Assembly: GCA_964537835.1 (NCBI GenBank)
Contig: CAZICS010000003.1
Span: forward strand, 7,163 to 71,162
Direction of reading: 5' to 3'
Length of the DNA stretch: 64,000 bases
From: an uncultured archaeon
Lineage (GTDB): Archaea; Aenigmatarchaeota; Aenigmatarchaeia; CG10238-14; SCSR01
Within the stretch, counting starts at the first letter, position 1. Each line of letters begins with the position of its first letter. A program made the position numbers and the translations under genes. The notes under the pieces are model-generated. The model was given only the letters and a program-made list of their open reading frames with translations. It was not told the origin of the DNA and ran no database searches. Positions 14,138 to 53,399 of this stretch are shown here, piece by piece.

Positions 14138-15658
14138 ATGAAATTCAGCTTAGAAGCTACGATGGAATTTAGCAAGCCAATAGATTTTCTTAAGTTAGAT
14201 TTCCCAAAGTTGATTGCTCAAATAAATTCAGAACTTTTTAGAAAAGGTGTTCCTCAAGAGCAAGAAGGGTCAAGAATAGTTCATTGGAATATAGTTGGGA
14301 CAAAACTTATTCTAACGATTGAAGGAACAACTTATTTAAGACCGCATGATGCTTTGCTTAGGCTAAGAAAATTCTTGGCTCAAAAATTTGGAAAAGAGTA
14401 TAATATTGGGGTAAGAAGTGTTTTTGTAAAAAATTATGAGATAAGGCTCAAGCCTAAAAGAATAGCAAAAGAGAAAGTTGAAGTTAAGGTACCTTGGGTT
14501 AAAGAAATAGTTCAAAAAGATAAGGAGTTTTTGATTAAATTGCAAGACTTAGATTCTACTGCTTTAGAAGATAGGTATGTTGAAAGAATTTTGAAAAGAA
14601 TAGAGGAAAAAATAAATCAAAAACTCTATGGTGGAAAAGCTGAGCATTGGGAATTAGTCTGGAAAAGCAGAAAAAGAAGAGTTGTTTGGAATAAAGATCC
14701 TACTCCTGAAATGGAAAAAAGAGGATGGATAAAAAGATTTAATGTTGGTGTTTGGTTGCATATGCCAATAACTACAAAGATAATGAGAACTTTCCAGAAA
14801 ATTGCTGAAAGGGAAATTCTTAGACCGTTAAAATTTGAAGAAGTAATGTTACCAAAAACAGTTCCTTTAGAAGTGTGGCTCCAAACAGGTCATGTTCCTG
14901 GATCTTCAAATTCTTTCTTCTATGTCTCCAGACCAGAAAAATGGGATCCAGAATTTTGGGAAGATTTTGCAGATTGGGTTAAGGTTACTAGAAAGATTCC
15001 TTACGATTTGCTAAAACAAAAATTGGCTGAACCAAATGCAGGTATTTGTTTTGCTCAATGTCCACCCCTCTACTGGTATTTCAAGAAGAAACTTATTCCT
15101 GAAAAAGAGTTGCCACTAAAATTCTGGGATGCTTCTGGAGTAAGCTACAGATGGGAAGGTGGAGGATTGCACGGAATAGAAAGGGATTGTGAATTTCACA
15201 GAATCGAAATAGTTTGGATTGGTACTAAAGAGCAAGTCATAGATATTAAAGAAAAATTGTTAGAAAAGTTCAAGTATATCTTTGATAAAATTTTAGAACT
15301 TGAGTGGAGAATGGCAAAGGTTACTCCTTGGTATATGGCTCAAGCTGGTCAATTGGGCTTAGAAGAAGAAAAGGAAATAGGAACTATAGATTTTGAAGCT
15401 TGGCTGCCATGGAGAGGCCCAAGAGAAAAAAGTGAATGGTTGGAATTCCAAAATCTAACGGTTGCTGGAACTAAATTTAGCGATGCTTGGGATTTTAAAA
15501 CTGAAAAAGGAAAGGAAGTTTGGACTGGTTGCTCTGGAATAGGATTGGAAAGGTGGCTTGCTGTATTCCTTGCACAAAAAGGTTTGGAGCCTAAAAAATG
15601 GCCCAAAAAGTTTGTTAAAATTTTAGGGAAATTGCCTAAAGAAATAAAACTCATTTAA
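14138..15658 (+). CDS. serS: Seryl-tRNA synthetase, rare long methanogen-type
   Basis: 506 aa. Class II motifs. GKAEHWELVW, HGIERDCEFHRIEIVWIG and GCSGIGLERWLAVFLAQKG match my recollection of the Methanosarcina barkeri-type SerRS. Confidence 0.7.
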   Translation: MKFSLEATMEFSKPIDFLKLDFPKLIAQINSELFRKGVPQEQEGSRIVHWNIVGTKLILTIEGTTYLRPHDALLRLRKFLAQKFGKEYNIGVRSVFVKNYEIRLKPKRIAKEKVEVKVPWVKEIVQKDKEFLIKLQDLDSTALEDRYVERILKRIEEKINQKLYGGKAEHWELVWKSRKRRVVWNKDPTPEMEKRGWIKRFNVGVWLHMPITTKIMRTFQKIAEREILRPLKFEEVMLPKTVPLEVWLQTGHVPGSSNSFFYVSRPEKWDPEFWEDFADWVKVTRKIPYDLLKQKLAEPNAGICFAQCPPLYWYFKKKLIPEKELPLKFWDASGVSYRWEGGGLHGIERDCEFHRIEIVWIGTKEQVIDIKEKLLEKFKYIFDKILELEWRMAKVTPWYMAQAGQLGLEEEKEIGTIDFEAWLPWRGPREKSEWLEFQNLTVAGTKFSDAWDFKTEKGKEVWTGCSGIGLERWLAVFLAQKGLEPKKWPKKFVKILGKLPKEIKLI

Positions 15659-16437: not shown

Positions 16438-16522
16438 TGCGGCCGCCGGGATTCGAACCCGGGTCACCAGCTTGGAAGGCTGGGGTCCATTGGCGAGGTT
16501 AGCCAGACTAGACTACGGCCGC
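16438..16522 (-). tRNA. tRNA-Gly(UCC) with an oversized (21-nt) D loop
   Basis: Acceptor GCGGCCG/CGGCCGC. Anticodon arm CCAGC-CTTCCAA-GCTGG. T arm CCGGG-TTCGAAT-CCCGG. About 10 extra nt (16493-16502) in the D loop. Confidence 0.65.
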
Positions 16523-39164: not shown

Positions 39165-39278
39165 GCCCCCGTAGCTCAGTTTGGATAGAGCGGCGCCCTT
39201 CTATGCTAGGCATAGAAGGTTTGATTCAAGATGAAAGAAGAAAGGCGAAGGTCGCGGGTTCAAATCCCGCCGGGGGCA
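39165..39278 (+). tRNA. tRNA-Arg(UCU) with about 39-nt intron at 37/38
   Basis: Acceptor GCCCCCG/CGGGGGC. Anticodon arm GCGCC-CTTCTA[intron 39204-39242]A-GGCGA (27:43 is G/A). T arm GCGGG-TTCAAAT-CCCGC. Confidence 0.75.
39220..39237 (+). other. Conserved intron block TTTGATTCAAGATGAAAG (copy 1 of 3)
   Basis: Near-identical to 44684-44701 and 57165-57183. UUGA-N3-AGAUGA resembles a box D'/C' K-loop. Confidence 0.6.
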
Positions 39279-44629: not shown

Positions 44630-44753
44630 GGGCCTGTAGCTCAGCCTGGTAGAGCAGCGGGCTTTTAGCTTTAAGCTAAAAGCTTTGATTCAAGATGAGA
44701 GAAACCCGTACGTGTAGGGGGAATGGTCGGGGGTTCAAATCCCCCCAGGCCCA
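44630..44753 (+). tRNA. tRNA-Lys(UUU) with about 36-nt intron at 37/38 and a second 14-nt insert after the anticodon stem
   Basis: Acceptor GGGCCTG/CAGGCCC. Anticodon arm GCGGG-CTTTTA[44668-44703]A-CCCGT. Extra acgtgtagggggaa (44710-44723) before TGGTC. T arm GGGGG-TTCAAAT-CCCCC. Confidence 0.7.
44684..44701 (+). other. Conserved intron block TTTGATTCAAGATGAGAG (copy 2 of 3)
   Basis: See 39220-39237. Confidence 0.6.
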
Positions 44754-44820: not shown

Positions 44821-45391
44821 ATGAACCATATAAGAAAACCTAAACTTGGCGACCTAGAATTGGCCTATGAAACTGGCTTTCATATAGGAGACTGCACGAT
44901 GACAAGTTGTACAATCTAAATGTAAAGGTTAAAAATTTTGAAAATACTTGCTATATCCGTATATATTCTAAAGAATTAGTAGAATTTAAATCCAAAGTTA
45001 TAGGTTTACCTATCGGACCTAAAACTTCACTCAAAAAACTGCCTACACTAATAATATCCAGAGGTCCTGATTGTGTATCTAGCCTTATAGCAGTATATTT
45101 GATGCAGATGGTAGTGTCAAAATCATCCATAAAAATAAAAGGATATATCCTGCCTTGAACATTACATTAAAAAACAAAGAAATTATTTATCAAATTAAAG
45201 ATATTCTTATGAAACGTGGTATAACCAGTACTTGTTACAAGGAGAGAAAATATGATAAGCGAACAAATAAGTTTACAATTGTATGGAGATTAGATATTAA
45301 TGGAACCCTAAACGTAAAAAAGTTCCTAAAAGAAATACCTATAAGAAATATAAATCATTTGAGAAGACTAAAAAAATTAAGAATCGTTTAA
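44821..45391 (+). pseudogene. Decayed LAGLIDADG homing-endonuclease gene (three frame fragments)
   Basis: Fragment 44821-44919 (LELAYETGFHIGDCTM), fragment 44907-45158 (KVIGLPIGPKT) and fragment 45083-45391 (SSIFDADGSVKI...). Collinear with the intact paralog at 48909-49739. Confidence 0.7.
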
Positions 45392-48758: not shown

Positions 48759-48841
48759 GATAGAAAGAGGCTATTTAAAATTAACTCGAGTAAATTTCCG
48801 GTAAAAACTTAAATCTTCGGTAAAATCAATAATATGTTTAT

Positions 48842-48927
48842 GGGCGGGTAGCTTAGCCTGGTTGGAGCGTCCGGCTGATAACTCATTGGAAACCGGAAGG
48901 TCGCCGGTTCAAATCCGGCCCCGCCCA
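48842..48927 (+). tRNA. tRNA-Ile(GAU) with 11-nt intron
   Basis: Acceptor GGGCGGG/CCCGCCC. Anticodon arm TCCGG-CTGATA[actcattggaa]A-CCGGA. T arm GCCGG-TTCAAAT-CCGGC. Confidence 0.8.
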
Positions 48928-49739
48928 TTCTCTAAACTGAGGGAGTCTATTTCTCCGTTTAGGATGGAAGTCCTTATTTTTAGGTTTGTATTAGGTGGGC
49001 AGAAACCAAATTTCTTCCAAATTTTAAATTTTGTTAAATGTTTTGGATTGTGAGAGCCTATGAGAGAAAACCATCGATTTACCATCTTCTTACCTGAGAT
49101 GTATATTTCATAGACTTTATAAACCTTCCCTGTTCTCCTGTCATGCTCACTAGAAATTCTCCAAGAAAAGTTAAAGTCTAGTTCTTTCAATAATTTGCAA
49201 AGAGAGACTGTTAATCTTTCACTCGAGAATCCGCATTTTATAACAGGATAATAGTGAACATCTTTATACTTTCTCTTAAAGGTTAATGTAAAATCTGCAT
49301 CGAATAACCCTCTTAAAAAGCTTATTTTAAACTTTTTATCAGAATTCTTAATTATTAATGGCATATCTGCTATATTCGTCTTTTTCCCAAGTGGTATTCC
49401 TATTACTTTATTGTAAAAAAGTATTATTCCTTTCGATCTAAACTGAATTCCATAAGTTCCATCAGAAAACTTTTTAGGAATTAATGAAAGTCCAAATAGT
49501 TTAAACTTGAGACCCACTATGAAGTTATCATACCATTCTCTATCGTCAAGTGGATGTCCAGAGCACTTATAAAAGTAGTCATTCCCATGAGGGTTTGGAT
49601 AGATATTCATACAACCATCACCTATATGGATCCCTATATCTTCAGCAAGCTCAGGAGTAAGAAAAGCAGGTAGTTTTATTCCTTTCTTTAAATCCTTCCT
49701 GCTAACTTCGATAGATGAAATATCAAGTTCAATTACCAT
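48909..49739 (-). CDS. Intact double-motif LAGLIDADG homing endonuclease-like protein
   Basis: Motif 1 LAEDIGIHIGDGCM, motif 2 FLRGLFDADFTL. The last 6 codons plus the stop are the complement of the tRNA-Ile 3' end (stop = complement of T-loop TCA, 48909-48911). Confidence 0.75.
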   Translation of the reverse strand: MVIELDISSIEVSRKDLKKGIKLPAFLTPELAEDIGIHIGDGCMNIYPNPHGNDYFYKCSGHPLDDREWYDNFIVGLKFKLFGLSLIPKKFSDGTYGIQFRSKGIILFYNKVIGIPLGKKTNIADMPLIIKNSDKKFKISFLRGLFDADFTLTFKRKYKDVHYYPVIKCGFSSERLTVSLCKLLKELDFNFSWRISSEHDRRTGKVYKVYEIYISGKKMVNRWFSLIGSHNPKHLTKFKIWKKFGFCPPNTNLKIRTSILNGEIDSLSLENGRGRI

Positions 49740-49968: not shown

Positions 49969-50262
49969 ATGAAAAGAATAAGAAAAATGATAAACGGCAA
50001 AAATCTGAAAAAAGAATTCACAGCTTTCCAAAAAGAGTTTAGAAAGCATCTAGCTCAATTCATAACAGGAGCTTTTGCTTTCGTTGCAGCTCTGCTCTGG
50101 AGAGATGCGATTAAATCTTTCATAGAAAGATATAAAGAAACTATTGAAAATTTAATGCCAATAAAGGAAGTTTGGTTTGCCCAATTTTTTACTGCATTTG
50201 CAGTTTCTGTAATTGCGGTAGTAGCAATAGTGATAATAAGTAAAGTGCTTAAGCCAGATTAA
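49969..50262 (+). CDS. Small membrane protein
   Basis: Two hydrophobic helices (ITGAFAFVAALLW, FFTAFAVSVIAVVAIVII). Confidence 0.4.
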   Translation: MKRIRKMINGKNLKKEFTAFQKEFRKHLAQFITGAFAFVAALLWRDAIKSFIERYKETIENLMPIKEVWFAQFFTAFAVSVIAVVAIVIISKVLKPD

Positions 50263-50695
50263 CATATTTTTGCAAAACTTTTTGAGCATTAAGGTTTATA
50301 ATTTCCTCAAGCTTACTTTCATCTACTTTCAAATATTTTTTCAAAATTTTAACTAGTTGATGATAATTTGGAAACTTCTTTCGCCTTACTTTTTCGATTT
50401 TCTTTGAAAGTATTCTTAGATTTCTCTTTTCAATTCCAGAAAAAAGCAAACCTACTTGAGGATTAAAACCCACTACTTTACCAGTTTCAAGGCTAATTGG
50501 CAATACTTCAATGTTTTTATATCCTGGATGTAAGGAATAAGCAGTTAAATAGATCTTTCCAAGTGAAGGGACTATAAATAAATGAAATCTTATACCTTCG
50601 TAAGTATCAACATTCGTATAGGATCTCCATTCTTTTCTTTTTTTCCTGCTTTCTTCGAGCAATTCATAACCTTTTTCATGCTCTACCAAACTCAT
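50249..50695 (-). CDS. Hypothetical protein
   Basis: 148-aa ORF. Confidence 0.4.
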   Translation of the reverse strand: MSLVEHEKGYELLEESRKKRKEWRSYTNVDTYEGIRFHLFIVPSLGKIYLTAYSLHPGYKNIEVLPISLETGKVVGFNPQVGLLFSGIEKRNLRILSKKIEKVRRKKFPNYHQLVKILKKYLKVDESKLEEIINLNAQKVLQKYVNLA

Positions 50696-50737
50696 TAGAA
50701 AAAATTTAAGAATTAAAAATAAAAACGTTTCTTTTTC

Positions 50738-51385
50738 TTATCCTACGACTTCAATTAGGTCAGAAAAAGTATTTAAGATAATGTCAGCTTCTCTTTCTAC
50801 ATTCTTGCTTTTGGGGCTAATTGCTACGCTTAATCCAACAACTTTGAAGATTGGTAGGTCATTTTCGCTATCTCCTACGAAGACAACTTCTTTAGAGCTG
50901 ATTTTAAGGATATTACAAATCTCTTTTAAAACTTCTATCTTTCCTTCATAATCGTAGTTCGAATAAGTACCGCCGATTAGCTTACCCTCTTCATCAAAAA
51001 ATAGTTCGGTGCAAAATCTTGGGAAATCTACTTTTAAACCTTCTTTTTTCTCAAAATAATCGTAAAAATTTTTTATTCCACCAGAGATTATGCAGGTTTT
51101 TAGTCCTCTTTCTCTAAGCTTTTTTAAAGTTTCTACGCAAGAATCGACTAGCTTTTGAGAAGAAGCTAATTCAATGAATTTCTTTTTAGTCAATCCATAT
51201 TTCTTGTACAATTCTATAGTTCTTCTAGACCATTCAGCATAGCTTATCTTTCCTTTCTTAAAAAGTTCTTCGTTGATAGAATCTTCTTTTTCACAGCCGA
51301 GAGCCGAAGTAATTAAAAACCAACTGCTAGAATTTATGTCTAAGAGAGTTCCGTCAAAATCCGAAGCAAGAAGATTAAATTTCAT
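50738..51385 (-). CDS. HAD-IB hydrolase (phosphoserine phosphatase-like)
   Basis: ASDFDGTL motif I, SGG motif II, GDSENDL motif IV. Confidence 0.7.
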   Translation of the reverse strand: MKFNLLASDFDGTLLDINSSSWFLITSALGCEKEDSINEELFKKGKISYAEWSRRTIELYKKYGLTKKKFIELASSQKLVDSCVETLKKLRERGLKTCIISGGIKNFYDYFEKKEGLKVDFPRFCTELFFDEEGKLIGGTYSNYDYEGKIEVLKEICNILKISSKEVVFVGDSENDLPIFKVVGLSVAISPKSKNVEREADIILNTFSDLIEVVG

Positions 51386-51482
51386 ATGCTTAAAATTTTT
51401 ATTTAAGAAGTTAAAAAATATTTGAAGGACTAGGGCCCGTAGCTCAGCCTGGTAGAGCAGCTGGCTCTTAGGGGGCTAGGAG

Positions 51483-51713
51483 ATGAAAAAAATAGACAAA
51501 AGTGTTATTAGCAAAATTCGGGAATACAGGAGACAAGGAAATTCTTTTAAACAAATAGCTCAAACTTTAGATTTAAGTCCAGCAACAGCATACAAGTATA
51601 GCAAAGATATTAAAGTTAGTGTAAGAAGAAAAACAACTCCTAAGAAAAAAGTTAAAATTCCTACTAAGATAACAAGGAATTTAGTAAAGAATAATAGGAC
51701 ATTGTATGTTTGA
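51483..51713 (+). CDS. Intron ORF part 1: HTH DNA-binding N-terminal region of the endonuclease
   Basis: ISKIREYRRQGNSFKQIAQTLDLSPATAYKYSKD (resolvase/transposase-type HTH). KKKVKIPTKITRNLVK aligns with KKGIKLPAFLTPELAE of the 48909-49739 paralog. Confidence 0.6.
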   Translation: MKKIDKSVISKIREYRRQGNSFKQIAQTLDLSPATAYKYSKDIKVSVRRKTTPKKKVKIPTKITRNLVKNNRTLYV

Positions 51714-52299
51714 TGGTAGTGTTTTCGAGTCCAAGAAAGATTACATAATACGTTACACCAACTCATCAAAAGAGGAAGTTAACAAGTTTGTAGAAGACAT
51801 GTGGGAAACATTCAGGTTATTACCAACATCTGTTATAAAAAGAAAAGGGAAATATATAGACTGGTTCGAAACAACATTCTCTTCAAAAAAAGTTTTCGAT
51901 TTTTTACACAATTTTGCTATCTCATTTAGCACTATTAGTGAAACAGGTTTCAGAGAGGAATTTTTATCTCTTCTTTCGAAGAATTTGAAAATAGAACTAT
52001 TAAGAACATTTTGGTGCGATGAAGGTAGCGTAGCAAAGGATGGAAAAATTGTGGGCAAAAGCAAGAGCTTAAGAATTATTCATCAGCTCAAAAATCTACA
52101 TGAATCGTTAGGAATAAAAACATCCATATGGAGAGATAATACCTCAAAAATTTACGGGCTTTACATTAAAAAGAATAAGAGAAATATTAAACTTTTTTCA
52201 AAGATAGGTTTTGGTAATGGTATTGTAACAAGAGGGAAATTTATAGGTCTAAAAAAGAATAAGGTATTAGTAAAATTATATGGGCCCGTCATCTCCTAG
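51706..52299 (+). CDS. Intron ORF part 2: double-motif LAGLIDADG endonuclease core
   Basis: Motif 1 (LY)FDGSVF at the junction, motif 2 LLRTFWCDEGSV. The stop TAG lies in the closing helix. Confidence 0.65.
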   Translation: MFDGSVFESKKDYIIRYTNSSKEEVNKFVEDMWETFRLLPTSVIKRKGKYIDWFETTFSSKKVFDFLHNFAISFSTISETGFREEFLSLLSKNLKIELLRTFWCDEGSVAKDGKIVGKSKSLRIIHQLKNLHESLGIKTSIWRDNTSKIYGLYIKKNKRNIKLFSKIGFGNGIVTRGKFIGLKKNKVLVKLYGPVIS

Positions 52300-52379
52300 C
52301 CCCAGGGAGACCAGTTGGTCGGGGGTTCAAATCCCCTCGGGCCCATTTTAGACAGGAATTATTTTCGATAAAAGTGAAA

Positions 52380-53399
52380 CTACTTAACTTTCGTTTTTAT
52401 TTCTATTAGAAAGCTGTTTTCTTCAGAATCCATTTCTCCTATGCTTCCGTAAGGGATTGTTATTATGGGATCTGTGTGTCCAAAGTTTACATTAGCCAAG
52501 ATAGGAAAATTATACTCACTTAATCTCTTCTCCACGAGCTTAAAGAATTCTTTTTTCATCCCTTCTGTATATTGATAGGGTATCCCAAATATCACACCCC
52601 TTGTTCTTTCAAAAACACCTATTTCCATTAGCTGACTCAAATTAGAATCGACTTTTTCGAGACTATAAGGTTTACCTGGTCTTTCACCTTCTGGTGTTTC
52701 AAGAAATATCAAAGATTTCTTAAAAGAAGGAAAGTATTTAGTTCCAGCAACTCTCAAAATACTTGGTAAACATCCGCCAACAAGCTTTCCTTTTCCATAA
52801 CCTTCTTTAAGCCAGAGAAACTCATTTTTCCTAAACCTATCCCTAGCTTTATTCCTATACCTACCCCAATCTAGAAATTGATCCGTATAGTTAACTGTCT
52901 TTACTTTACCTATTTCACCTTTCATCACAGCTTTGAAGAAATAATTTACAGTGTATTCAAATGGTTCTGGATATTCTCCAAATTGGGTTAAGACCATAGG
53001 CCCATAAAAAGTTACAACTCTCGATTTTTTATAAAATGCCAAGTGTAAAACTGTTATATCAGAAAAACCCATGAATATCTTCGGATTTCTTCTAAAAGCT
53101 TTAAAATCAAGGTATCTCAACAATTGAACTGAATTCTTGCCGCCTATGGAAGAAATAATACACTTCACTTCCTTATCCTCAATCATTCTATTAATATCTT
53201 CAGCTCTTTCTTCGGGCTCTCCCGCTATATAACCAGTCTTCCAAAAGTATTTACCGATTTTTACTTTAAAGCCATACTTATTAAACCATCTAATAGCTCT
53301 CCTAACCCTATACTTATACTTTCCAGCTAGACCGGCAGAGGGTGAAACAAGGCCTATAGTATCTCCTTTTTTAAGTAAGGGAGGGTAGATCAGTTTCAT
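52380..53399 (-). CDS. LD-carboxypeptidase (peptidase S66, MccF-like)
   Basis: GDTIGLVSPSAG N-terminus and GFSDITVLH nucleophile motif. Confidence 0.8.
   Translation of the reverse strand: MKLIYPPLLKKGDTIGLVSPSAGLAGKYKYRVRRAIRWFNKYGFKVKIGKYFWKTGYIAGEPEERAEDINRMIEDKEVKCIISSIGGKNSVQLLRYLDFKAFRRNPKIFMGFSDITVLHLAFYKKSRVVTFYGPMVLTQFGEYPEPFEYTVNYFFKAVMKGEIGKVKTVNYTDQFLDWGRYRNKARDRFRKNEFLWLKEGYGKGKLVGGCLPSILRVAGTKYFPSFKKSLIFLETPEGERPGKPYSLEKVDSNLSQLMEIGVFERTRGVIFGIPYQYTEGMKKEFFKLVEKRLSEYNFPILANVNFGHTDPIITIPYGSIGEMDSEENSFLIEIKTKVK

What the first reader, a model, noticed from the sequence alone, without database searches (positions are those of the whole stretch)
51433..52345. 839-nt bulge-helix-bulge intron in tRNA-Lys(CUU) filled by an HTH plus double-LAGLIDADG endonuclease gene
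The exons (51433-51470 and 52310-52345) join into a normal tRNA-Lys(CUU). The intron sits at the canonical 37/38 site and its ends fold into a textbook hBHBh' motif:
- anticodon stem GCTGG/CCAGT;
- 4-bp central helix CTCT 51465-68 with AGGG 52304-07;
- 3-nt bulges TAG 51469-71 and AGA 52308-10, with both cuts after the second bulge nucleotide;
- a 13-bp closing helix GGGGCTAGGAGAT 51472-84 with ATCTCCTAGCCCC 52291-303.
The coding region uses the whole intron. The ATG (51483) lies inside one strand of the closing helix and the stop TAG (52297-99) lies inside the other.

The product has a resolvase/transposase-type HTH (ISKIREYRRQGNSFKQIAQTLDLSPATAYKY) and two LAGLIDADG motifs ((LY)FDGSVF and FWCDEGSV). 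It is a paralogue of the tRNA-flanking genes at 48909-49739 and 44821-45391.

ORF-bearing BHB introns are established for archaeal rRNA genes. Archaeal tRNA introns are normally only tens of nucleotides long, up to about 100 nt, and non-coding. A tRNA intron acting as a homing element would be unusual, and it offers a mechanism for the spread of tRNA introns.
Basis: partly seen in the sequence, partly recalled or inferred. Interest (0 to 1): 0.85.

Follow-up and report, generated by a model that had tools for sequence, protein, structure and literature searches.

The report
Endonuclease gene inside archaeal tRNA intron
An archaeal tRNA-Lys gene is interrupted by an 839-base intron that the cell's normal tRNA-splicing enzyme should remove. 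The intron carries a selfish DNA-cutting enzyme gene, here broken by one extra base, of a type previously described only in archaeal ribosomal RNA introns, which suggests how tRNA introns might spread.

Summary
The RNA anatomy is confirmed. Exons 51433-51470 and 52310-52345 join into a normal tRNA-Lys(CUU). The 839-nt intron sits at position 37/38 and its ends form a bulge-helix-bulge (BHB) motif closed by a 13-bp helix.

One correction. In this window the ORF is split by one extra A (51686-88) into a 76-aa HTH ORF and a 197-aa LAGLIDADG ORF. A 99.7%-identical contig from another sample carries the intact 271-aa gene. Its AlphaFold model best matches I-DmoI, the endonuclease of an archaeal rRNA intron.

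The arrangement recurs. Related genes fill 37/38 introns of tRNA-Lys(CUU) in three further lineages, and of tRNA-Arg(CCU), initiator-like tRNA-Met and tRNA-Gln. All excise in silico to normal tRNAs.

Mobility is supported by four observations:
- a syntenic intron-less tRNA-Lys(CUU) in a related organism;
- synonymous divergence 4-10 times lower in the intron than in flanking genes;
- decayed endonuclease copies;
- endonuclease clades that follow tRNA identity.

Many relatives lie directly beside tRNA genes, most of which carry introns.

No description of a coding archaeal tRNA intron was found; reviews give 11-129 nt. Verdict: real, a new variant of a known kind. Splicing and DNA cleavage are untested.

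The parts
51396..51407 (+). A/T-rich TATA-like box (TTTTTATTTAAG), 26-37 nt upstream of the mature tRNA 5' end. Putative archaeal promoter of the pre-tRNA.
   Evidence: Read from the sequence. This is an inference only; no archaeal promoter tool was available.
51433..51470 (+). tRNA-Lys(CUU) 5' exon (tRNA positions 1-37).
   Evidence: ARAGORN with introns allowed, and the cloverleaf of the joined exons.
51471..52309 (+). 839-nt BHB intron at the canonical 37/38 position.
   Evidence: No group I or II intron model matches, even at permissive threshold. The intron is 31.6% GC against 34.4% for the window.
52310..52345 (+). tRNA-Lys(CUU) 3' exon (positions 38-73). No encoded CCA. Followed by TTTT.
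51460..51471 (+). 5' strand of the BHB: anticodon-stem strand GCTGG, central-helix strand CTCT, and 3-nt bulge TAG. The predicted cut is after 51470.
   Evidence: Sequence. Pair counts over 8 such introns give 90.5% of cells paired, against 31-46% when the partners are slid.
52304..52315 (+). 3' strand of the BHB: central-helix strand AGGG, 3-nt bulge AGA, and anticodon-stem strand CCAGT. The predicted cut is after 52309.
   Evidence: In L001 the equivalent AGAG/TTA forms the canonical BHB as the unconstrained minimum-energy fold.
51472..51484 (+). 5' strand of the 13-bp closing helix (GGGGCTAGGAGAT). It overlaps the ATG at 51483.
   Evidence: L001 has GGGGTCAGAGGA/TCCTCTGACCCC, which is four double compensatory changes.
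52291..52303 (+). 3' strand of the closing helix (ATCTCCTAGCCCC). It contains the stop codon TAG at 52297-99.
51483..51713 (+). First fragment of the endonuclease gene: 76 aa holding a three-helix HTH (51507-51599), ending at a premature stop caused by the frameshift.
   Evidence: ORF list. Pfam HTH_38 and HTH_7 match below their cut-offs. Helices 6-17, 22-28 and 33-40 appear in the model of the intact protein.
51686..51688 (+). AAA run that carries one A more than the intact allele. This is the frameshift site.
   Evidence: Alignment of L006 with the window: one indel here plus four SNPs inside the intron, and none in the 1215 nt of upstream flank.
51688..52299 (+). Second fragment of the gene, holding the double-LAGLIDADG core. 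The frame is open from 51688 and the first ATG is at 51706 (197-aa ORF).
   Evidence: Pfam LAGLIDADG_3 at E=3.9e-10 in two stretches. Foldseek's best match is I-DmoI, with E=9e-9 and TM 0.73 normalised to the target.
51688..51723 (+). LAGLIDADG motif 1 (RIIGHCMFDGSV), with the acidic residue D retained. The 197-aa ORF starts inside this helix.
51997..52032 (+). LAGLIDADG motif 2 (LLRTFWCDEGSV). D-E-G is invariant across the family alignment.
52282..52289 (+). GGGCCCGT inside the intron, identical to the first 8 nt of the tRNA. It encodes the G-P-V of the C-terminal YGPVIS. Probably a relic of a tRNA 5' end.
   Evidence: 17 of 18 nt match the end of the L007 ORF, where the same bases are the real 5' end of tRNA-Val(UAC). 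Weak tRNA-like Rfam hits cover 52282-52344/8.

Best explanation
The locus is a tRNA-Lys(CUU) gene of an uncultivated archaeon, interrupted at position 37/38 by a protein-coding BHB intron.

Shown:
- The exons make a normal tRNA.
- The intron ends form helix, 3-nt bulge, 4-bp helix, 3-nt bulge and a 13-bp helix.
- The intron is almost entirely a gene for an N-terminal HTH fused to a monomeric double-LAGLIDADG endonuclease of I-DmoI-like fold.

Inferred mechanism:
- The gene is transcribed as one pre-tRNA.
- The host tRNA-splicing endonuclease cuts after 51470 and after 52309, and RtcB-type ligase joins the exons. This yields functional tRNA-Lys(CUU) and an excised, probably circular, intron RNA.
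- The endonuclease is translated from the precursor or from the excised intron.
- It cleaves intron-less tRNA-Lys(CUU) genes around the anticodon-loop insertion site. Repair from the intron-bearing copy then converts the cut allele (homing).

In this particular strain the endonuclease gene carries a +1 frameshift. This copy is therefore probably at the decay stage of the homing cycle, while the intron remains spliceable.

The element belongs to a wider family of HTH-LAGLIDADG genes that specialise on tRNA genes. Members sit in the intron, or immediately 5' or 3' of the tRNA.
For: Anatomy:
-, described under the observation check.

Protein:
- Pfam LAGLIDADG_3 matches at E=3.9e-10.
- Full-length homologues of 258-288 aa fuse the HTH and LAGLIDADG parts.
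- The intact 271-aa allele P0007 lies in a 99.7%-identical contig.
- The AF2 model has pLDDT 87. Its top PDB folds are I-DmoI, then I-Tsp061I and intein endonucleases.
- The acidic residues of both motifs are conserved.

Splicing competence:
- The same intron occurs in tRNA-Lys(CUU) of L001, L002/L018 and L017 (proteins 53-69% identical). Exons are diverged but compensated, and the closing helix covaries.
- Related genes lie in 37/38 introns of tRNA-Arg(CCU) (L020, L049), initiator-like tRNA-Met (L066) and tRNA-Gln (L083).
- Every one excises in silico to a normal tRNA.
- BHB pair counts give 90.5% paired against 31-46% in slid controls, and 19 of 21 pairs change on both sides.
- Five of the six tRNA genes in the window carry introns, so the host depends on BHB splicing.

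Mobility:
- L171 comes from the same sample as a contig identical to the window. It has an intron-less tRNA-Lys(CUU) at the syntenic position, divergent from a 69%-identical HAD gene. It matches the window exons over 21 nt 5' and 5 nt 3' of the insertion site.
- Between the window and lineage L161, dS is 0.07 for the intron gene. For three flanking genes it is 0.30, 0.59 and 0.79.
- Decay states exist: the frameshift here, a split ORF in L017, and a 496-nt deletion derivative in L049.
- Endonuclease clades follow tRNA identity.
- Contigs of related strains break exactly at the intron.

Not an artefact:
- Identical junctions appear in at least four assemblies.
Against: - No RNA data exist. Splicing and intron circularisation are inferred only.
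- For the window's own sequence, nearest-neighbour folding favours a register-shifted central helix by 6 kcal/mol over the canonical BHB.
- The intron contains three oligo-T runs (T6, T5, T6). These could attenuate archaeal transcription before the 3' exon is reached.
- The endonuclease gene is frameshifted here, so this copy cannot currently drive homing unless the extra A is an error.
- The intron-less allele comes from a fairly distant relative (69% aa identity in the neighbouring gene), not from the same species. It is therefore equally compatible with ancient gain or loss.
- The dS contrast rests on only 91 codons, because the L161 contig ends inside the intron.
- Endonuclease activity and target site are untested.
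- The rest of the genome was not available to check for a second tRNA-Lys(CUU) gene.
Confidence: 0.75

Rival explanations
1. The tRNA gene is dead. A free-standing endonuclease cassette inserted into the anticodon loop and destroyed the gene. The transcript is not spliced, and tRNA-Lys(CUU) is supplied by another gene or by wobble reading from tRNA-Lys(UUU) at 44630-44753.
For: - No expression data exist.
- RNAfold prefers a non-BHB register for the window sequence.
- The intron contains oligo-T runs.
- The endonuclease gene is already decaying.
- A tRNA-Lys(UUU) gene lies 7 kb away.
Against: - The exons stay perfect cloverleaves in at least 4 diverged lineages, with compensatory stem changes.
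- The intron ends keep a BHB plus a covarying closing helix in 8 independent introns.
- The insertion point is exactly 37/38 in four different tRNA species. Chance disruption does not predict any of these.
Confidence: 0.08
2. The protein is domesticated and is not, or is no longer, a homing enzyme. It could be a WhiA-like DNA-binding regulator, or an RNA chaperone or maturase that helps fold or process the very long pre-tRNA. The intron would then be inherited vertically.
For: - The HTH plus LAGLIDADG combination recalls WhiA, which appears among the structural matches.
- dN/dS is about 0.2 between two lineages, indicating selection on the protein.
- LAGLIDADG maturases are known in organelles (general knowledge).
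Against: - The catalytic D and E of both motifs are conserved, unlike WhiA.
- The HTH is N-terminal, not C-terminal.
- The gene is dispensable, since frameshifted, split and deleted copies persist with intact BHB and exons.
- dS is far below that of the flanking genes.
- An intron-less allele exists.
- BHB splicing needs no maturase.
Confidence: 0.08
3. The frameshift is an assembly or sequencing error in a homopolymer, or is bypassed by +1 ribosomal frameshifting. The window's copy would then encode the full 271-aa enzyme and be an active homing element. This rivals only the 'decaying copy' part of the main explanation.
For: - The defect is a single extra A in an A-run.
- The remainder of both ORF fragments is intact.
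- The intact allele differs by only 4 further SNPs.
Against: - The 197-aa product is called on four contigs from several sources. An ENA assembly is base-for-base identical to the window, including the extra A.
- The intron shows 4 SNPs against 0 in 1215 nt of flank, which fits relaxed constraint.
- No known +1 slippery motif is present (inspection).
Confidence: 0.2
4. The intron is a self-splicing group I or group II intron, or the locus is an assembly chimera.
For: Group I introns carrying LAGLIDADG genes occur in archaeal rRNA genes (PMC6125680) and in bacterial tRNA genes (PMC3984707).
Against: - No intron ribozyme model matches, at gathering or at permissive threshold.
- The ORF spans 817 of the 839 nt (51483-52299), leaving no room for a ribozyme core.
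- The ends form a BHB.
- The same junctions recur in independent assemblies and in diverged homologues.
Confidence: 0.01

Closest known systems
Archaeal rRNA BHB introns carrying LAGLIDADG homing endonucleases (I-DmoI of Desulfurococcus mobilis 23S rRNA, I-PorI, I-ApeI, I-Tsp061I)
   Same: - A BHB splice motif processed by the tRNA-splicing endonuclease.
- The intron is almost filled by one ORF.
- A monomeric double-LAGLIDADG enzyme; I-DmoI is the best structural match.
- Sporadic distribution and decayed copies.
- Background: PMC4496867, PMC2738675.
   Different: - The host gene is a tRNA, and the site is the canonical tRNA intron position 37/38.
- The enzyme has an extra N-terminal resolvase-type HTH.
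- Sequence similarity to characterised enzymes is marginal (best PDB sequence hit E about 1e-3).
- Relatives also live outside introns, beside tRNA genes.
Ordinary archaeal tRNA introns
   Same: Position 37/38, an hBHBh' motif using the anticodon stem, and presumably the same splicing machinery. Five such introns occur in other tRNA genes of this window.
   Different: Described archaeal tRNA introns are 11-129 nt and non-coding, apart from a box C/D RNA in tRNA-Trp (PMC4090602). This one is 839 nt and encodes a protein.
Bacterial and cyanobacterial tRNA group I introns with homing endonuclease genes (for example the tRNA-fMet intron encoding I-Ssp6803I; recalled from memory, with general background in PMC3984707)
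   Same: An endonuclease-bearing mobile intron in the anticodon loop of a tRNA gene.
   Different: Those introns are self-splicing ribozymes with a different endonuclease family. Here there is no ribozyme and splicing is done by a protein enzyme.
Free-standing homing endonucleases acting with ORF-less introns: 'collaborative homing' and the 'endonuclease-gene invasion' route to mobile introns (PMC3984707, PMC6083498, PMC2790892)
   Same: - Members of this family lie 10-140 nt from tRNA genes, and 31 of those 38 tRNAs carry introns.
- Within one clade, tRNA-Arg(CCU), the gene is found 5' of the tRNA, 3' of it, or inside its intron.
   Different: The known cases are phage group I introns in protein-coding genes. 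Whether the archaeal flanking enzymes cut the intron insertion site is untested.
tRNA intron transposition in Thermoproteales (Fujishima et al. 2010, as summarised in PMC10714607)
   Same: Homologous introns appear in different tRNA species. This is also seen here for the short introns of tRNA-Arg(UCU) and tRNA-Lys(UUU).
   Different: Those introns are short and no mobilising enzyme is known. Here an endonuclease is physically linked to the intron.
WhiA (bacterial LAGLIDADG plus HTH transcription factor)
   Same: A two-domain LAGLIDADG scaffold combined with an HTH. It appears among the fold matches.
   Different: In WhiA the HTH is C-terminal and the catalytic residues are lost. Here the HTH is N-terminal, the acidic residues are retained, and the gene sits in an intron.

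Membership tests
Archaeal bulge-helix-bulge (BHB) intron | Two 3-nt bulges on opposite strands, separated by a 4-bp helix and flanked by helices. | tested here: met
   - The sequence gives CTCT/AGGG, bulges TAG and AGA, the anticodon stem and a 13-bp inner helix.
- Over 8 related introns, 90.5% of cells are paired against 31-46% in slid controls.
- The canonical BHB is the unconstrained optimum in L001 and L066.
- For the window itself it is 6 kcal/mol above a register-shifted fold.
Archaeal bulge-helix-bulge (BHB) intron | Excision at the bulges restores a functional RNA. | tested here: met
   In silico only. The joined exons give a normal tRNA-Lys(CUU). The same holds for L002, L017, L020, L049, L066 and L083.
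Archaeal bulge-helix-bulge (BHB) intron | Cleavage by the tRNA-splicing endonuclease (EndA) and ligation by RtcB, with a circular intron as by-product. | not testable with these tools
   No RNA data or enzymology were available. The window was not searched for EndA or RtcB. Five other intron-bearing tRNA genes in the window imply the machinery is present.
LAGLIDADG homing endonuclease (monomeric, double-motif, I-DmoI-like) | Two LAGLIDADG helices, each ending in a conserved acidic residue. | tested here: met
   RIIGHCMFDGSV and LLRTFWCDEGSV. D-E-G is invariant in the alignment. In the window itself the frameshift separates motif 1 from a usable start codon.
LAGLIDADG homing endonuclease (monomeric, double-motif, I-DmoI-like) | A duplicated alpha-beta-beta-alpha-beta-beta-alpha fold. 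| tested here: met
   AF2 model with pLDDT 87 and pTM 0.74. Foldseek finds I-DmoI at E=9e-9 and TM 0.73 normalised to the target. Pfam LAGLIDADG_3 is above its cut-off.
LAGLIDADG homing endonuclease (monomeric, double-motif, I-DmoI-like) | Site-specific double-strand cleavage of the intron-less allele at or near the insertion site. | not testable with these tools
   A candidate target exists: the intron-less tRNA-Lys(CUU) of L171, identical to the window exons over 26 nt spanning the insertion site.
LAGLIDADG homing endonuclease (monomeric, double-motif, I-DmoI-like) | Presence/absence polymorphism and a history discordant with the host gene. | tested here: inconclusive
   - The intron is present in the window, L006, L161 and L172, and absent at the syntenic site of L171.
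- dS is 0.07 against 0.30-0.79 for the flanks.
- The absent allele is from a distant relative, and the dS test covers only 91 codons.
Group I (or group II) self-splicing intron | A conserved ribozyme core. | tested here: not met
   No Rfam intron family matches, at gathering or at E<=1. The ORF spans 817 of the 839 nt.
WhiA-like LAGLIDADG-derived transcription factor | Degenerate LAGLIDADG motifs lacking catalytic acids, with a C-terminal HTH. | tested here: not met
   The acidic residues are conserved and the HTH is N-terminal.
Integrase-type element targeting a tRNA gene | An integrase gene, and a direct repeat of the tRNA 3' part at the far end of the element. | tested here: not met
   The intron has no integrase and no such repeat. 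Partial tRNA 3'-end repeats do follow some flanking family members, L003 and L021, but without an integrase.

The most novel reading that the evidence does not exclude
HTH-LAGLIDADG endonucleases that specialise on tRNA genes are a driver of the origin and spread of archaeal tRNA introns.

- Free-standing copies beside tRNA genes cut intron-less anticodon loops.
- A short intron at 37/38 disrupts the target, so it protects the carrier allele and is co-converted with the endonuclease gene (collaborative homing).
- Occasional movement of the gene into the intron creates autonomous coding tRNA introns like this one.
- Loss of the gene then leaves ordinary short introns.

The GGGCCCGT relic at the intron's 3' end would be a trace of a former position just upstream of a tRNA.
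Probability: 0.3. Interest if true: 0.9.

Novelty: new variant of a known kind. Interest (0 to 1): 0.75.

Why it matters
How archaeal tRNA introns arise and move between genes and genomes is a long-standing open question. Short tRNA introns have no known mobilising enzyme, whereas archaeal rRNA introns have homing endonucleases.

A tRNA intron that carries such an enzyme, together with a family of related enzymes parked beside intron-bearing tRNA genes, gives a concrete and testable mechanism. The test is to express the 271-aa protein and cut the intron-less tRNA-Lys gene.

There is also a practical consequence. Standard tRNA finders miss these genes, so genomes carrying them will appear to lack essential tRNAs.

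Finally, these enzymes would be new, naturally tRNA-gene-specific LAGLIDADG scaffolds.

Tried and rejected
- **Group I/II intron:** no Rfam match, at gathering or at permissive threshold.
- **Intron-less allele in viral contigs:** a scan for the 16-nt anticodon arm gave 63 hits. All were phage-type tRNAs and none was a full-length archaeal allele.
- **Intron-less allele by synteny through the S66 peptidase neighbour:** the 92% relative (L161) also has the intron. The 72% relatives are not syntenic. The HAD-hydrolase neighbour succeeded instead.
- **Close paralogy with 48909-49739 and 44821-45391:** rejected. The relationship is remote only.
- **Programmed +1 frameshift:** no slippery motif, and the intact allele simply lacks one A. 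Not pursued further.
- **Local tRNA-like cloverleaf of 52282-52345 as a functional element:** the fold energy is not distinguishable from shuffles (z = -1.5). The Rfam hits are far below gathering score. Kept only as a possible relic.
- **Sequence search of the PDB:** only marginal intein-endonuclease hits. Fold comparison was needed.
- **Host taxon:** the window's genome is not among the GTDB representatives scanned, so the taxon could not be named directly. Neighbour-protein labels conflict: Ca. Geothermarchaeota at 92% and Ca. Aenigmarchaeota at 69%.
- **Literature:** seven of the eight full-text searches looked for a coding archaeal tRNA BHB intron and found no description of one. The library lacks most subscription journals.
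Full report
**1. What is at the coordinates**

ARAGORN in its default mode finds only one tRNA in the window. Rfam at gathering threshold finds five, and none of them at this locus. With long introns allowed, ARAGORN calls tRNA-Lys(ctt) at 51433-52345 with an 839-nt intron starting at gene position 39. The joined exons fold as a normal 74-nt cloverleaf.

- anticodon stem GCTGG 51460-64 with CCAGT 52311-15;
- central helix CTCT 51465-68 with AGGG 52304-07;
- bulges TAG 51469-71 and AGA 52308-10, which place the cuts after A37 and before A38;
- a perfect 13-bp helix 51472-84 with 52291-303;
- the ATG (51483) and the stop codon (52297-99) lying inside the two strands of that helix.

No group I or II intron model matches, even permissively. 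The ORF leaves no room for a ribozyme.

The window is archaeal and chromosomal. It carries archaeal-type LeuRS, a methanogen-type SerRS, TyrRS and an aCPSF1-like RNase. Five of its six tRNA genes have introns.

**2. The coding region is broken in this window**

The ORF list shows two ORFs in different frames: 51483-51713 (76 aa) and 51706-52299 (197 aa). The second frame is open from 51688, which completes LAGLIDADG motif 1 as RIIGHCMFDGSV.

Homologues of 258-288 aa fuse the two parts. A cluster mate, P0007 (271 aa), is encoded on contig L006 from another sample. L006 is 99.7% identical to window 50218-52670. Its differences from the window are:
- one A fewer in the run at 51686-88;
- four SNPs inside the intron, two of them non-synonymous;
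- none in the 1215 nt of upstream flank.

An ENA assembly (L005) is identical to the window, including the extra A. The 197-aa product is called on four contigs. The simplest reading is a real strain-level frameshift, meaning a decaying copy. A homopolymer error cannot be excluded without reads.

**3. What the protein is**

- Pfam gives LAGLIDADG_3 (E=3.9e-10, two stretches) for the second part. For the first part it gives sub-threshold resolvase/IS-type HTH hits.
- The AlphaFold model of the intact protein (pLDDT 87) shows a three-helix N-terminal domain, a flexible linker, and two alpha-beta-beta-alpha-beta-beta-alpha halves.
- Foldseek's best PDB matches are some thirty I-DmoI entries (E about 1e-8, TM 0.73 normalised to the target). 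After them come the TliVMA intein endonuclease, WhiA, PI-PfuI and I-Tsp061I.
- Sequence-only comparison with the PDB is marginal.
- The acidic residues closing both LAGLIDADG helices are conserved. This argues for an active nuclease rather than a WhiA-like regulator.
- An exhaustive profile search finds 77 clusters (at 50% identity) at E<=1e-30 and 578 at E<=1e-10. The family is of modest size.

**4. The arrangement recurs, and its RNA structure is conserved**

- tRNA-Lys(CUU) introns:
  - The closest relatives (53-69% identity) also sit in 37/38 introns of tRNA-Lys(CUU).
  - L002, and L018 from another sample, has an 867-nt intron with an intact ORF.
  - L001 is cut off by the end of its contig inside the anticodon stem.
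  - L017 has an 848-nt intron with the ORF split in two.
- Compensated divergence:
  - Their exons differ from the window's by compensated stem changes.
  - The closing helix covaries: GGGGCTAGGAGAT/ATCTCCTAGCCCC in the window, GGGGTCAGAGGA/TCCTCTGACCCC in L001.
- Other tRNA species. More distant relatives occupy 37/38 introns of:
  - tRNA-Arg(CCU): L020 full length, and L049 as a 496-nt deletion derivative with a textbook BHB;
  - an initiator-like tRNA-Met (L066, 693 nt);
  - tRNA-Gln(UUG) (L083, 654 nt).
- In-silico excision. Removing the intron at the predicted sites gives a normal tRNA in every case.
- Pair counts:
  - The alignment of the eight intron ends was anchored on the splice sites.
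  - 90.5% of cells form standard pairs, against 31-46% when the partners are slid.
  - 19 of 21 pairs change on both sides.
- Folding energies:
  - Unconstrained folding returns exactly the canonical BHB for L001 and L066.
  - For the window it prefers a shifted central helix, -38.9 against -32.9 kcal/mol.
  - This is a caveat for this particular allele.

**5. Evidence bearing on mobility**

- (a) Presence and absence.
  - Related lineages at about 90-93% DNA identity (L161, L172) have the intron.
  - L171 has an intron-less tRNA-Lys(CUU) in the same place and orientation. Its neighbouring HAD hydrolase is 69% identical and it comes from the same sample as L005.
  - L171 is identical to the window exons over 21 nt upstream and 5 nt downstream of the insertion site.
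  - That is a ready-made candidate target.
- (b) Divergence.
  - Between the window and L161, synonymous divergence is 0.30, 0.79 and 0.59 for three flanking genes.
  - For the 91 available codons of the intron gene it is 0.07, with dN 0.014.
  - The intron is therefore younger than its surroundings, as expected after transfer between lineages.
- (c) Decay states. Intact, frameshifted, split and internally deleted copies coexist with intact exons and BHBs. This is the pattern of the homing cycle.
- (d) Target tracking.
  - In a neighbour-joining tree the endonuclease clades follow tRNA identity.
  - There are Lys(CUU), Arg(CCU), Met, Val and His groups, as expected for target-specific enzymes.
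- (e) Assembly breaks. Two assemblies break exactly at the intron boundary or inside the intron. This is consistent with the sequence being shared among co-occurring strains.

None of this demonstrates cleavage or homing directly.

**6. Family context**

- Of 95 loci encoding relatives, 55 have a tRNA gene containing, overlapping or within 300 nt of the ORF. The density in the far flanks of the same loci predicts about six.
- Besides the intronic cases, some genes lie directly upstream of a tRNA, with the ORF reading into its 5' end.
  - L007 ends ...YGPVI*, encoded by GGGCCCGTGATCTAG, which is the start of tRNA-Val.
  - L019/L039 read into tRNA-Arg(CCU), and L045 shows the same pattern.
- Others lie 10-130 nt downstream. 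In L003 and L021 these are followed by a remnant of a tRNA 3' end.
- Within the tRNA-Arg(CCU) clade all three positions occur.
- tRNAs within 140 nt of the gene are called intron-containing in 31 of 38 cases. For more distant tRNAs in the same loci the figure is 7 of 37 (Fisher p=5e-8). The loci are not independent and ARAGORN's intron calls were only spot-checked.
- The window's intron ends with TATGGGCCCGTCATCTCCTAG. This matches the L007 ORF/tRNA overlap at 17 of 18 nt and repeats the first 8 nt of tRNA-Lys itself. It looks like a relic of a former position just upstream of a tRNA.
- Together these observations fit the 'endonuclease-gene invasion' and 'collaborative homing' routes described for phage group I introns (PMC3984707, PMC6083498). 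Whether the flanking enzymes cut the intron insertion site is untested.

**7. Mechanism proposed**

Shown: the tRNA exons, the BHB geometry and the endonuclease fold.

Inferred:
- one precursor transcript, from an A/T-rich box at 51396-51407 to the T-run after 52345;
- cleavage at both bulges by the host splicing endonuclease, then exon ligation;
- release of a linear or circular intron RNA that serves, or served, as the message;
- cleavage of intron-less tRNA-Lys(CUU) genes by the protein, with the HTH probably extending DNA contacts;
- copying of the intron during repair.

In this strain the enzyme is probably inactive while the intron persists.

**8. Comparison with what is known, and novelty**

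BHB introns carrying LAGLIDADG genes are established for archaeal rRNA genes (PMC4496867, PMC2738675). Archaeal tRNA introns are described as 11-129 nt and non-coding (PMC4090602). Eight full-text searches were run. Seven looked for a coding archaeal tRNA BHB intron and none found a description of one. The eighth retrieved the collaborative-homing literature. The library omits most subscription journals, so prior description cannot be excluded.

I classify this as a new variant of a known kind. It combines a known splice mechanism and a known enzyme superfamily with three new features:
- a new host-gene class;
- a new domain architecture (N-terminal HTH);
- a new link to a tRNA-gene-specialised endonuclease family.

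**9. Limits**

- There are no RNA or biochemical data.
- The host genome beyond 64 kb was not seen, so a second tRNA-Lys(CUU) gene is unknown.
- The host taxon is uncertain. Neighbour-protein labels are Ca. Geothermarchaeota at 92% and Ca. Aenigmarchaeota at 69%.
- The dS test covers only a short stretch.
- The tree is a rough distance tree.
- The intron contains three oligo-T runs that might reduce read-through.

Noticed in passing
window 48841-48928 and 48909-49739 (-): The tRNA here is tRNA-Ile(GAU) with an 11-nt 37/38 intron; ARAGORN had called it Ser(gga). A 276-aa LAGLIDADG_3-like gene without an HTH lies on the opposite strand. Its last 20 nt overlap the tRNA's 3' end, so the protein ends ...ENGRGRI* encoded by the complement of the T-arm and acceptor. 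It is only remotely related to the intron gene (hhalign 71% probability, 25% identity).
   Followed up: partly
window 44630-44753 and 44821-45391 (+): The tRNA is tRNA-Lys(UUU), not Ser as ARAGORN called it. It has a roughly 36-nt 37/38 intron plus 14 extra nt (ACGTGTAGGGGGAA) after position 43, possibly a second intron. A degenerate LAGLIDADG gene starts 68 nt downstream, broken into at least three frames. It is a distant paralogue (36% identity in part) of 48909-49739.
   Followed up: partly
window 39165-39278 and 44630-44753: The short introns of tRNA-Arg(UCU), which ARAGORN called Leu(aag), and of tRNA-Lys(UUU) share TTTGATTCAAGATGA(A/G)AGAA. The same short intron therefore appears in two different tRNA species of one genome, which resembles the intron transposition described in Thermoproteales.
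   Followed up: partly
window 52282-52345: The intron's GGGCCCG can pair with the 3' acceptor strand, giving a local four-arm tRNA-like fold. Rfam reports weak mascRNA-menRNA (27.5 bits) and tmRNA (21.8 bits) hits there. The fold energy is not better than shuffles (z = -1.5). It may be a relic of an older tRNA 5' half, or a competing structure that hinders BHB formation.
   Followed up: partly
L003 1036-1060; L021 1320-1350: Where the endonuclease gene lies downstream of a complete tRNA (Val-CAC in L003, Arg-CCU in L021), a diverged remnant of a tRNA 3' end follows the gene. This suggests that homing carried a tRNA copy along and displaced the resident gene's end.
   Followed up: partly
L013 2739-2883, L015 2721-2870, L084 1824-1966, L089 651-808: tRNA-His and tRNA-Tyr genes beside family members carry a conserved 37/38 intron of about 70-85 nt (GGCYAKAGATRCG...GGAATGAKAGAGAGCCAG). 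A hairpin plus T-run lies between the tRNA and the endonuclease gene. The conserved intron might encode a small RNA. ARAGORN misplaces its boundaries.
   Followed up: no
L161 4013-5840 (NCBI CAYYER010000029.1): In the roughly 90%-identical lineage, 1.8 kb of extra DNA lies between the tRNA-Lys 3' end and the S66 peptidase gene, which is only 34 nt away in the window. It holds a 312-aa ORF and a 122-aa ORF, with no significant Pfam match for either. This lineage's intron also has an in-frame 3-nt insertion (YGPVIIS*).
   Followed up: partly
window 16438-16522 (-): tRNA-Gly(UCC) appears to carry a roughly 10-nt insertion in the D-arm region rather than at 37/38, which would be a non-canonical intron position. 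ARAGORN finds it only with introns allowed and fails on the raw sequence.
   Followed up: no
window 14138-15658 (+): The seryl-tRNA synthetase is of the unusual methanogen type. It matches NCBIfam PRK00960 and serS_MJ at E=4e-170, just under the curated cut-off. This is unexpected if the host is a DPANN-like or Geothermarchaeota-like archaeon.
   Followed up: no
L170 3375-3500: A 67%-identical HAD homologue has no tRNA upstream. There is only a T-arm-like fragment (TTGGGGGTTTAAATCCCAC), possibly the remnant of a lost tRNA gene at the syntenic position.
   Followed up: no
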